Made by a program: the position numbers and the translations under genes. Shown piece by piece: positions 27,508-28,180 of a stretch of 64,000 bases of DNA; the first letter of the stretch is position 1; each line of letters starts with the position of its first letter. The stretch is from NCBI RefSeq assembly GCF_003334335.1, contig NZ_QOWQ01000016.1; one strand, given 5' to 3'. The notes under the pieces were generated by a model that saw only the letters and a list, made by a program, of their open reading frames with translations, searched no databases and had not been told where the DNA came from. The stretch comes from Escherichia coli (lineage in GTDB: Bacteria; Pseudomonadota; Gammaproteobacteria; Enterobacterales; Enterobacteriaceae).

Positions 27508-27592
27508 GGTGGGGTTCCCGAGCGGCCAAAGGGAGCAGACTGTAAATCTGCCGTCATCGACTTCGAAGGTTCGAATCCTTCCCCCACCACCA
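27508..27592 (+). tRNA. tyrT: tRNA-Tyr (anticodon GUA), copy 1
   Basis: 85-nt sequence GGTGGGGTTCCCGAGCGGCCAAAGGGAGCAGACTGTAAATCTGCCGTCATCGACTTCGAAGGTTCGAATCCTTCCCCCACCACCA with long variable arm and encoded CCA. Confidence 0.97.
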
Positions 27593-27801
27593 TAATTCAC
27601 CACAGCGATGTGGTAACTTCGGTGAGATTGTGAAAGTTTGCACTCATCGGGGAAGGGTGAGAACCTTCGACTAAGGTTCGATTCGAGCGAAAGCGAGAGA
27701 ACGTTGCCACAGGCAACGGCCCGAAGGGTGAGGAGCGAAGCGACGAATAATCCTTCCCCCACCACCATCTCAAGCATTACCTCAAAATTTGAATTACCCC
27801 T

Positions 27802-27886
27802 GGTGGGGTTCCCGAGCGGCCAAAGGGAGCAGACTGTAAATCTGCCGTCATCGACTTCGAAGGTTCGAATCCTTCCCCCACCACCA
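27802..27886 (+). tRNA. tRNA-Tyr (anticodon GUA), copy 2
   Basis: Identical 85-nt tRNA-Tyr sequence, 294 bp downstream of copy 1. Confidence 0.97.
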
Positions 27887-28095
27887 TAATTCACCACAGC
27901 GATGTGGTAACTTCGGTGAGATTGTGAAAGTTTGCACTCATCGGGGAAGGGTGAGAACCTTCGACTAAGGTTCGATTCGAGCGAAAGCGAGAGAACGTTG
28001 CCACAGGCAACGGCCCGAAGGGTGAGGAGCGAAGCGACGAATAATCCTTCCCCCACCACCATCTCAAGCATTACCTCAAAATTTGAATTACCCCT

Positions 28096-28180
28096 GGTGG
28101 GGTTCCCGAGCGGCCAAAGGGAGCAGACTGTAAATCTGCCGTCATCGACTTCGAAGGTTCGAATCCTTCCCCCACCACCA
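28096..28180 (+). tRNA. tyrV: tRNA-Tyr (anticodon GUA), copy 3
   Basis: Identical 85-nt tRNA-Tyr sequence, 294 bp downstream of copy 2. Confidence 0.97.

What the first reader, a model, noticed from the sequence alone, without database searches (positions are those of the whole stretch)
27508..28180. Three tandem tRNA-Tyr genes where K-12 has two
Two apparently identical 294-bp units (tRNA plus 209-bp spacer) are followed by a third tRNA copy, all downstream of a single tyrT-type promoter. K-12 has two copies (tyrT, tyrV) here as I recall, so this looks like a recent unequal-crossover expansion. All three copies carry the same variable-loop sequence (CGTCATCGAC).
Basis: partly seen in the sequence, partly recalled or inferred. 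Interest (0 to 1): 0.4.

Follow-up and report, generated by a model that had tools for sequence, protein, structure and literature searches.

The report
Three-copy tyrT tRNA-Tyr tandem array
This E. coli carries three instead of the usual two identical tyrosine-tRNA genes in the well-known tyrT operon, a rare but recurrent and already-recorded copy-number variant made by recombination between tandem repeats, so it is ordinary.

Summary
There are three identical 85-nt tRNA-Tyr(GUA) genes at 27508-27592, 27802-27886 and 28096-28180. The two 294-bp units (tRNA plus 209-bp spacer) are 100% identical. One tyrT promoter (27430-27457) precedes the array, which lies between purU and narI as in K-12.

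Each spacer contains an RtT element, and two more RtT copies follow in 178-bp repeats.

K-12 MG1655 has two copies (tyrT, tyrV). Of 5,426 complete E. coli genomes, 12 have three copies, at least 196 have one, and most of the rest have two. Those 12 include ETEC H10407, an O157:H7 strain and the K-12 cloning strains TOP10, XL1-Blue, XL10-Gold and Origami2.

In every three-copy genome examined, the two spacers are identical to each other but carry that lineage's own SNPs. This points to at least four independent, recent expansions. Twenty-six of 27 other enterobacterial species representatives show a clean pair, and none shows three complete copies.

The best explanation is a recent gain of one 294-bp unit, by unequal sister-chromatid exchange or replication slippage, in a K-12-like phylogroup A strain. 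A near-identical two-copy relative exists (FDN-24).

Assembly error cannot be excluded without reads. The arrangement is known and of low interest.

The parts
26506..27348 (+). purU (formyltetrahydrofolate deformylase), the upstream neighbour, in the same orientation as the tRNA array
   Evidence: 280-aa ORF. The corresponding gene is annotated purU in TOP10, MG1655 and others. The upstream 12.5 kb is 100% identical to K-12 strain NCM3722.
27430..27457 (+). tyrT promoter (-35 TTTACA, 16-nt spacer, -10 TATGAT, followed by the GC-rich discriminator GCGCCCCGC). It is the only promoter-like site ahead of the array.
   Evidence: Promoter scan, 10 of 12 matches with TG before the -10. The sequence matches lhm-T2, the homology arm that PMC2887954 placed just upstream of the tyrT/tyrV genes it replaced. 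Function is inferred from the classical tyrT literature (own knowledge).
27508..27592 (+). tRNA-Tyr(GUA) copy 1 (tyrT position)
   Evidence: ARAGORN; Rfam RF00005, 53.4 bits; identical to K-12 tyrT/tyrV
27593..27801 (+). 209-bp spacer 1, containing a diverged RtT element at 27636-27767 that ends in a copy of the tRNA 3' end (AATCCTTCCCCCACCACCA)
   Evidence: Rfam RF00391, 132.9 bits against a gathering score of 45; identical to the single K-12 spacer
27802..27886 (+). tRNA-Tyr(GUA) copy 2. This is the extra unit, flanked by spacer on both sides, which only happens in arrays of three or more copies.
27887..28095 (+). 209-bp spacer 2, identical to spacer 1, with RtT at 27930-28061
28096..28180 (+). 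tRNA-Tyr(GUA) copy 3 (tyrV position, followed by the 178-bp repeats)
28162..28542 (+). 2.14 copies of the 178-bp repeat, starting in the last 19 nt of tRNA copy 3. It holds RtT elements at 28227-28358 and 28405-28536. The equivalent of K-12 rttR is about 28188-28358. The tpr ORF (29 aa, protamine-like) is at 28248-28337.
   Evidence: TRF period 178, 96% matches; Rfam RF00391 at 137.5 and 133.8 bits; positions of rttR b4425 and tpr b1229 relative to tyrV in NC_000913; translation
28720..29397 (-). narI, the convergent downstream neighbour. A terminator-like hairpin on the minus strand lies at 28701-28680.
   Evidence: 225-aa ORF, annotated narI in related genomes; terminator scan

Best explanation
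This is the E. coli tyrT operon (promoter, tyrT, spacer with RtT, tyrV, 178-bp RtT/tpr repeats) between purU and narI. It carries one extra 294-bp unit of tRNA plus spacer.

Shown:
- The array is a perfect head-to-tail triplication with no novel junction sequence.
- Two copies is the norm in E. coli and in related genera.
- Both one-copy and three-copy variants occur in the species.
- Three-copy variants arose several times independently.

Inferred:
- A two-copy parent like strain FDN-24 mispaired tyrT with tyrV, which share about 95 bp of identity. This happened between sister chromosomes (RecA-dependent unequal exchange) or during replication (RecA-independent slippage or template switching). 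The result was a three-copy product.
- All three genes are co-transcribed from the single tyrT promoter and cut out by the normal tRNA-processing enzymes. The spacers release RtT RNA.
- The expected effect is a modest rise in tRNA-Tyr gene dosage, from 3 to 4 genes per genome counting tyrU (recalled, not examined here), and one more RtT copy.
- The variant is probably near-neutral and unstable, able to revert to two copies or fall to one.
For: - Three identical tRNA-Tyr genes and two identical 294-bp units.
- A single promoter.
- RtT in each spacer and in the downstream repeats.
- Same neighbours and same tRNA and spacer sequence as K-12 tyrT-tyrV.
- Twelve of 5,426 complete genomes hold three copies and at least 196 hold one, the reciprocal class expected from unequal exchange.
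- In H10407, CH4784, EcPF16, GF4, ET474 and O157:H7 F1273, both spacers are identical within the genome yet carry lineage-specific SNPs: T47C, A192G, or six O157 substitutions. This implies at least four separate, recent expansions.
- FDN-24 has the same 24 kb, differing by four SNPs on the left flank, an indel in narX and the missing unit.
- Of 27 other enterobacterial species representatives with a spacer of 190-220 nt, none has a triple.
- H10407, a long-standing RefSeq reference record (NC_017633), has the same three-copy structure, so the state has been recorded before.
Against: - No read-level data are available for this window, so the copy number rests on the assembly.
- No complete genome in the collection has exactly this combination of three tRNA units and two downstream repeats.
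- Four of the twelve three-copy records are K-12 cloning strains with neighbouring accession numbers, while the DH10B reference has two copies. Copy number at this locus can therefore differ between assemblies of near-identical strains, for biological or technical reasons.
- Identical units could also be maintained by gene conversion rather than by recency.
- Co-transcription and a dosage effect were not measured.
Confidence: 0.8

Rival explanations
1. Assembly artefact: the strain really has two copies (or some other number), and the assembler mis-counted an exact 294-bp tandem repeat.
For: The repeat is perfect over 675 bp, which short-read assemblers cannot count reliably. TOP10 is assembled with three copies while the DH10B reference has two. 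Four of the twelve three-copy records have neighbouring accession numbers.
Against: The whole array is under 900 bp, so it is easily spanned by any long read or Sanger clone. Stbl4, from the same accession series, is not among the three-copy hits, which argues against a systematic pipeline effect. Three copies also occur in unrelated records, including H10407 and an O157:H7 strain. Collapse, not expansion, is the usual assembly error for exact repeats.
Confidence: 0.12
2. Three copies is the older state, inherited in this lineage, and K-12 and most strains lost one copy.
For: Deletions are commoner than gains at this locus: at least 196 single-copy genomes against 12 with three copies.
Against: Two copies is found in the great majority of E. 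coli, in E. albertii, and in 25 further species representatives of other genera. The two spacers in the window have no differences. The closest relatives with the same flanks have two copies. Three-copy genomes are scattered over different spacer alleles.
Confidence: 0.03
3. Selected amplification: the extra unit was fixed because more tRNA-Tyr or more RtT RNA is advantageous in this strain's niche or genetic background. This is compatible with the same recombination mechanism.
For: The expansion recurs independently in several lineages, including four K-12 cloning strains. Published work shows that tRNA gene copy number can change by tandem duplication in laboratory bacterial populations (PMC7661048 and PMC10954465, abstracts). 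Multiple E. coli tRNA gene copies are reported to help only during rapid growth (PMC10954465 citing Raval et al. 2023).
Against: Three copies is very rare (0.2%), much rarer than one copy (3.6%), and no clade-wide fixation was seen. That pattern is expected for neutral or slightly deleterious unstable variants. No phenotype data exist.
Confidence: 0.1

Closest known systems
E. coli K-12 tyrT operon (tyrT b1231, tyrV b1230, rttR b4425, tpr b1229)
   Same: Same position between purU and narI. The promoter region is identical, as are the 85-nt tRNA and the 209-bp spacer. The 178-bp RtT repeats and the tpr ORF are also present.
   Different: The window has three tRNA units instead of two, and two downstream 178-bp repeats instead of three.
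Three-copy tyrT arrays already in RefSeq: ETEC H10407, O157:H7 F1273, CH4784, EcPF16, GF4, ET474, GF124.3, and the K-12 cloning strains TOP10, XL1-Blue, XL10-Gold and Origami2(DE3)
   Same: Same architecture of tRNA-spacer-tRNA-spacer-tRNA with 294-bp spacing and identical units within each genome. Over the 733-nt core, the K-12 strains and GF124.3 are 100% identical to the window.
   Different: The number of downstream 178-bp repeats is 1, 2, 3 or 4 in those genomes. Those with the K-12 spacer allele have three (the cloning strains) or one (GF124.3), not two. Some carry lineage-specific spacer SNPs.
Unequal recombination at the duplicated su3/tyrT genes (Russell et al. 1970, J Mol Biol 47:1) and the 178-bp repeat described by Egan and Landy 1978. 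Recalled from own knowledge, not read here.
   Same: A tandem identical tRNA-Tyr pair that gains or loses units by recombination between copies.
   Different: The classical work mainly followed loss of one copy, on transducing phages. Here a chromosomal gain is seen in a natural-type strain.
Other tandem tRNA arrays with variable copy number in E. coli, such as glyV-glyX-glyY
   Same: Tandem arrays of identical copies attributed to within-genome duplication, reported as three or four copies across E. coli (PMC4539685).
   Different: A different tRNA and locus, and no RtT-type spacer element.

Membership tests
tRNA-Tyr (Rfam RF00005; ARAGORN cloverleaf) | Cloverleaf with GUA anticodon, long variable arm and encoded CCA end | tested here: met
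   ARAGORN calls tRNA-Tyr (gta) three times. Rfam tRNA scores 53.4 bits against a gathering score of 29, three times. The sequence ends in CCACCA.
E. coli tyrT operon | Located between purU and narI, in the same orientation as purU | tested here: met
   ORFs at 26506-27348 (+) and 28720-29397 (-), with matching annotation in MG1655, TOP10 and FDN-24
E. coli tyrT operon | tyrT/tyrV-type tRNA sequence and the 209-bp tyrT-tyrV spacer | tested here: met
   The 85-nt gene and the 209-bp spacer are identical to those of MG1655. tyrU itself was not fetched for comparison.
E. coli tyrT operon | Single tyrT promoter upstream of the first tRNA | tested here: met
   TTTACA-16-TATGAT at 27430-27457 is the only + strand site ahead of the array. 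The upstream sequence is 100% identical to K-12. Activity was not measured.
E. coli tyrT operon | Two tRNA-Tyr genes (tyrT, tyrV) | tested here: not met
   Three genes are present. This is the only departure from the reference tRNA array; the number of downstream 178-bp repeats also differs.
RtT RNA (Rfam RF00391) | Match to the covariance model above the gathering score, lying in the tyrT transcript | tested here: met
   Four full-length hits at 132.9-137.5 bits against a gathering score of 45
Tandem duplication by homologous unequal exchange or slippage | Head-to-tail identical units with no foreign sequence at the junctions | tested here: met
   The units are 100% identical, and the repeat is perfect over 27507-28181.
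Tandem duplication by homologous unequal exchange or slippage | The reciprocal (deletion) class is present in the population | tested here: met
   At least 196 of 5,426 genomes have purU-tRNA-178-bp repeat with one tRNA.
Tandem duplication by homologous unequal exchange or slippage | Dependence on RecA (exchange) or independence from it (slippage) | not testable with these tools
   This needs fluctuation assays in recA+ and recA- backgrounds.
supF / su3 amber suppressor allele of tyrT | Anticodon CUA in one copy | tested here: not met
   All three copies have anticodon GTA and are identical.

The most novel reading that the evidence does not exclude
The tyrT locus may act as a fast copy-number dial with two independently variable arrays, the 294-bp tRNA unit and the 178-bp RtT unit. 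On this reading, three-copy alleles are repeatedly selected in particular backgrounds, for example K-12 cloning strains, to raise tRNA-Tyr or RtT RNA levels.
Probability: 0.07. Interest if true: 0.4.

Novelty: already known. Interest (0 to 1): 0.1.

Why it matters
It matters little. It is a small, real example of copy-number polymorphism at a classical tandem tRNA locus.

Practical value:
- It warns that tRNA-Tyr gene counts differ among E. coli strains, even among common cloning strains such as TOP10 and DH10B. This may matter for tyrT/tyrV engineering, for example in genetic code expansion.
- It marks a spot where assemblies should be checked with spanning reads.

Tried and rejected
1. I looked for the source genome. 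No complete E. coli genome matches the window exactly over 24.5 kb. The best hits differ by one 178-bp or one 294-bp unit, so the strain is not in that collection.
2. I scanned one genome per species (100,044 species) for a triple array with 190-220-nt spacers and found none. The two-copy control pattern found 27 species. This shows the pair is ancestral. It cannot see triples with other spacer lengths or diverged tRNA ends, and many of those records are short-read drafts.
3. Literature searches for tyrT copy-number variation, unequal recombination at tyrT, the RtT RNA, and a paper describing the cloning-strain assemblies found nothing specific. Withers et al. 2006 is not held. Two searches failed for lack of capacity.
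4. A suppressor (supF) allele was rejected because all anticodons are GTA.
5. Extra promoters in the spacers were rejected.
6. The long minus-strand ORFs across the array, such as 27499-28398, were treated as artefacts of the repeats.
7. I did not scan metagenomes, because short-read assemblies cannot count this repeat.

Full report
**Observation**

The window holds exactly three tRNA genes, all tRNA-Tyr with anticodon GTA, at 27508-27592, 27802-27886 and 28096-28180 on the + strand (ARAGORN; Rfam tRNA model). The three 85-nt genes are identical.

The two units 27508-27801 and 27802-28095 are 294 bp each and differ at no position. The perfect repeat runs from 27507 to 28181. Tandem Repeats Finder reports period 294, 2.9 copies.

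A single promoter-like site, TTTACA-16 nt-TATGAT, lies at 27430-27457. No other + strand site lies ahead of or within the array.

Each spacer contains a full-length match to the Rfam RtT family (27636-27767 and 27930-28061, 132.9 bits against a gathering score of 45). After the third tRNA come 2.14 copies of a 178-bp repeat (28162-28542), which starts inside the last 19 nt of the tRNA. It carries two more RtT matches at 28227-28358 and 28405-28536.

By position relative to the last tRNA, K-12's rttR corresponds to about 28188-28358. K-12's 29-aa tpr ORF corresponds to 28248-28337.

The left neighbour is purU (26506-27348, +). The right neighbour is narI (28720-29397, -). No intrinsic terminator-like site lies on the + strand after the array. 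This agrees with the classical report that tyrT transcription ends by Rho inside the 178-bp repeats (own knowledge, not tested here).

**What organism and what reference state**

The flanks are E. coli of the K-12-like phylogroup A type. The 12.5 kb upstream is 100% identical to K-12 strain NCM3722 and to many ST10-like isolates. The 11.8 kb downstream is 99.9-100% identical to K-12 and to poultry isolates such as FDN-24.

MG1655 has tyrT and tyrV 294 bp apart, one spacer RtT and three downstream RtT copies. Its tRNA and spacer sequences are identical to the window's. The window therefore equals the K-12 operon plus one 294-bp unit and minus one 178-bp unit.

Strain FDN-24 has two tRNAs and two downstream repeats. 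Over 24 kb it differs from the window by four SNPs on the left flank, an indel in narX and the missing unit. It is a good model of the parental arrangement. No complete genome has exactly the window's combination.

**How common is each copy number**

Tandem copies share all junctions, so I used alignment length rather than a junction.

- **Three copies.** The query ran from 30 nt before the first tRNA to 30 nt after the third (733 nt), with an E-value limit of 1e-250. Only a single alignment of more than about 475 matched bases can pass. A two-copy genome gives at most about 410. Thirteen records passed. Twelve are annotated with three tRNA-Tyr genes. The thirteenth, MB51, is a hybrid described below.
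- **The twelve.** They are TOP10, XL1-Blue, XL10-Gold, Origami2(DE3), GF124.3, ETEC H10407 and SEC470 (a record of identical length and coordinates, apparently the same sequence), CH4784, EcPF16, GF4, ET474 and O157:H7 F1273. None has four copies.
- **One copy.** A synthetic query of promoter, one tRNA and the downstream repeat (485 nt, limit 1e-160) found 196 genomes with a single tRNA. This is a lower bound, because lineages with other downstream sequence are missed. ST131 is one such lineage, where an island follows the tRNA.
- **Two copies.** An evenly spaced sample of all hits shows two copies in the large majority.

Three copies is thus about 0.2% of complete genomes and one copy at least 3.6%. 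Two copies accounts for most of the rest, though lineages with an interrupted locus, such as ST131, were not counted separately.

**Independent origins**

I fetched eight of the three-copy loci and compared their spacers. In every genome the two spacers are identical to each other, but alleles differ between genomes.

- **K-12 allele:** the window, TOP10 and GF124.3.
- **T47C:** H10407.
- **A192G:** CH4784, EcPF16, GF4 and ET474.
- **Six substitutions:** the O157:H7 strain.

Each expansion therefore copied the resident spacer, giving at least four independent events. The number of downstream 178-bp repeats in these genomes is 1, 2, 3 or 4, so the second array varies on its own.

**Other species**

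A pattern requiring three tRNA-Tyr genes with 190-220-nt spacers found nothing in one genome per species for 100,044 species. The two-copy control pattern found 27 species representatives. They include Escherichia albertii, Citrobacter, Klebsiella, Kluyvera, Kosakonia, Serratia, Erwinia and others.

ARAGORN finds two tRNA-Tyr genes in all of these loci except one that is cut at the locus end. The Leclercia locus is irregular, with a third, truncated copy. The pair is the conserved state, not the triple.

**Mechanism**

The structure is a head-to-tail repeat with no foreign junction sequence. Both the deletion class and the expansion class occur in the population. These are the signatures of misaligned homologous exchange between tyrT and tyrV on sister chromosomes, or of replication slippage between the same repeats. 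Sequence cannot separate the two routes.

That this locus gains and loses copies by recombination has been known since the su3 work of Russell and colleagues in 1970 (own knowledge; not held in the library). Deletions can also arise within one chromosome, which fits one-copy genomes being about sixteen times commoner than three-copy ones.

Expression is inferred, not shown. One promoter identical to K-12's drives all three genes. Normal processing would release three tRNAs and the RtT RNAs. Counting tyrU (recalled, not examined here), the tRNA-Tyr gene count would rise from three to four. Published experiments in Pseudomonas report tRNA gene set evolution by large tandem duplications in laboratory populations (PMC7661048, PMC10954465). 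Extra E. coli tRNA copies are reported to help only in fast growth.

**Rivals**

- **Assembly error.** This cannot be excluded without reads. Exact 294-bp repeats are hard for short reads, and TOP10 (three) and DH10B (two) disagree. However, the array is short enough for any long read. The same state occurs in unrelated records, including the long-standing H10407 reference. Stbl4, from the same accession series as the three-copy cloning strains, was not among the three-copy hits.
- **Ancestral triple.** This is contradicted by the species-wide and cross-genus distribution and by the identity of the units.
- **Selection for the extra copy.** This is possible but unsupported, given the rarity of the state.

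**Comparison with the known, and verdict**

This is the tyrT operon. It meets every defining feature tested except the copy number of two. The same three-copy form is already annotated in public genomes. It is a rare, recurrent, probably recent and unstable copy-number variant of a textbook locus.

- **Novelty:** already known.
- **Interest:** low, about 0.1.
- **Most novel reading not excluded:** the locus is a selected dosage dial, for instance in cloning strains. I give that about 7%.

Noticed in passing
window 28162-28542; L001, L002, L003, L006, L007, L009: The 178-bp RtT repeat after the last tRNA-Tyr is itself copy-number variable among E. coli. The window has 2 RtT copies. MG1655, TOP10 and H10407 have 3, ET474 has 4, and GF4, GF124.3 and EcPF16 have 1. 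It varies independently of the 294-bp tRNA unit.
   Followed up: partly
L010 (E. coli MB51) 1531-2618: A hybrid arrangement: tRNA-spacer-tRNA-spacer, followed directly by three downstream RtT repeats with no third tRNA. This looks like a recombinant between a spacer RtT and a downstream RtT or the tRNA 3' end.
   Followed up: partly
L001 (TOP10) versus L012 (DH10B NC_010473): TOP10, XL1-Blue, XL10-Gold and Origami2(DE3) assemblies have three tRNA-Tyr genes at tyrT. The DH10B and MG1655 references have two, and Stbl4 was not among the three-copy hits. Either the locus changed in cloning-strain lineages or the assemblies differ.
   Followed up: partly
L040 (E. coli O25:H4 ST131 strain 18044) 1709-3298: After purU there is a single tRNA-Tyr, followed at once by fatty acid desaturase and sterol desaturase genes instead of the spacer. 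This suggests an island inserted at the tRNA-Tyr gene in this lineage.
   Followed up: no
L027 (Leclercia adecarboxylata NCTC13032) 1956-2860: An irregular array: a tRNA-Tyr, two spacer RtT copies, a second tRNA-Tyr, another RtT, then a truncated third tRNA-Tyr fused to RtT at the shared GGTTCGA motif. The record shows homopolymer length differences suggestive of sequencing errors, so part of this may be artefact.
   Followed up: partly
L005 (E. coli EcPF16) 2250-3726: Next to its three-copy array, this strain lacks narI through the 5' part of narX. narX is annotated as incomplete right after the first downstream RtT.
   Followed up: no
window 28248-28337 and 28426-28443: Only the first downstream 178-bp repeat keeps the intact 29-aa tpr (protamine-like) ORF. 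The copy in the second repeat has a TAA stop after five codons.
   Followed up: yes
window 27636-27767, 28227-28358 compared with 27508-27592: RtT elements share with tRNA-Tyr the segments CTTCGA..AAGGTTCGA and AATCCTTCCCCCACCACCA, and their 5' GGGGAAGG pairs with the 3' CCTTCCCC. They look like degenerate derivatives of the tRNA-Tyr gene, which gives extra homology for recombination across the locus.
   Followed up: no
tyrT operon; bioRxiv 10.1101/2024.07.17.603846: A mobilome-sequencing preprint reports raised exonuclease-resistant DNA coverage over the tyrT-tyrV-rttR-tpr region of its E. coli strain after several stresses. This could reflect excised repeat circles, though the authors discuss it in terms of rttR's role in the stress response.
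   Followed up: no
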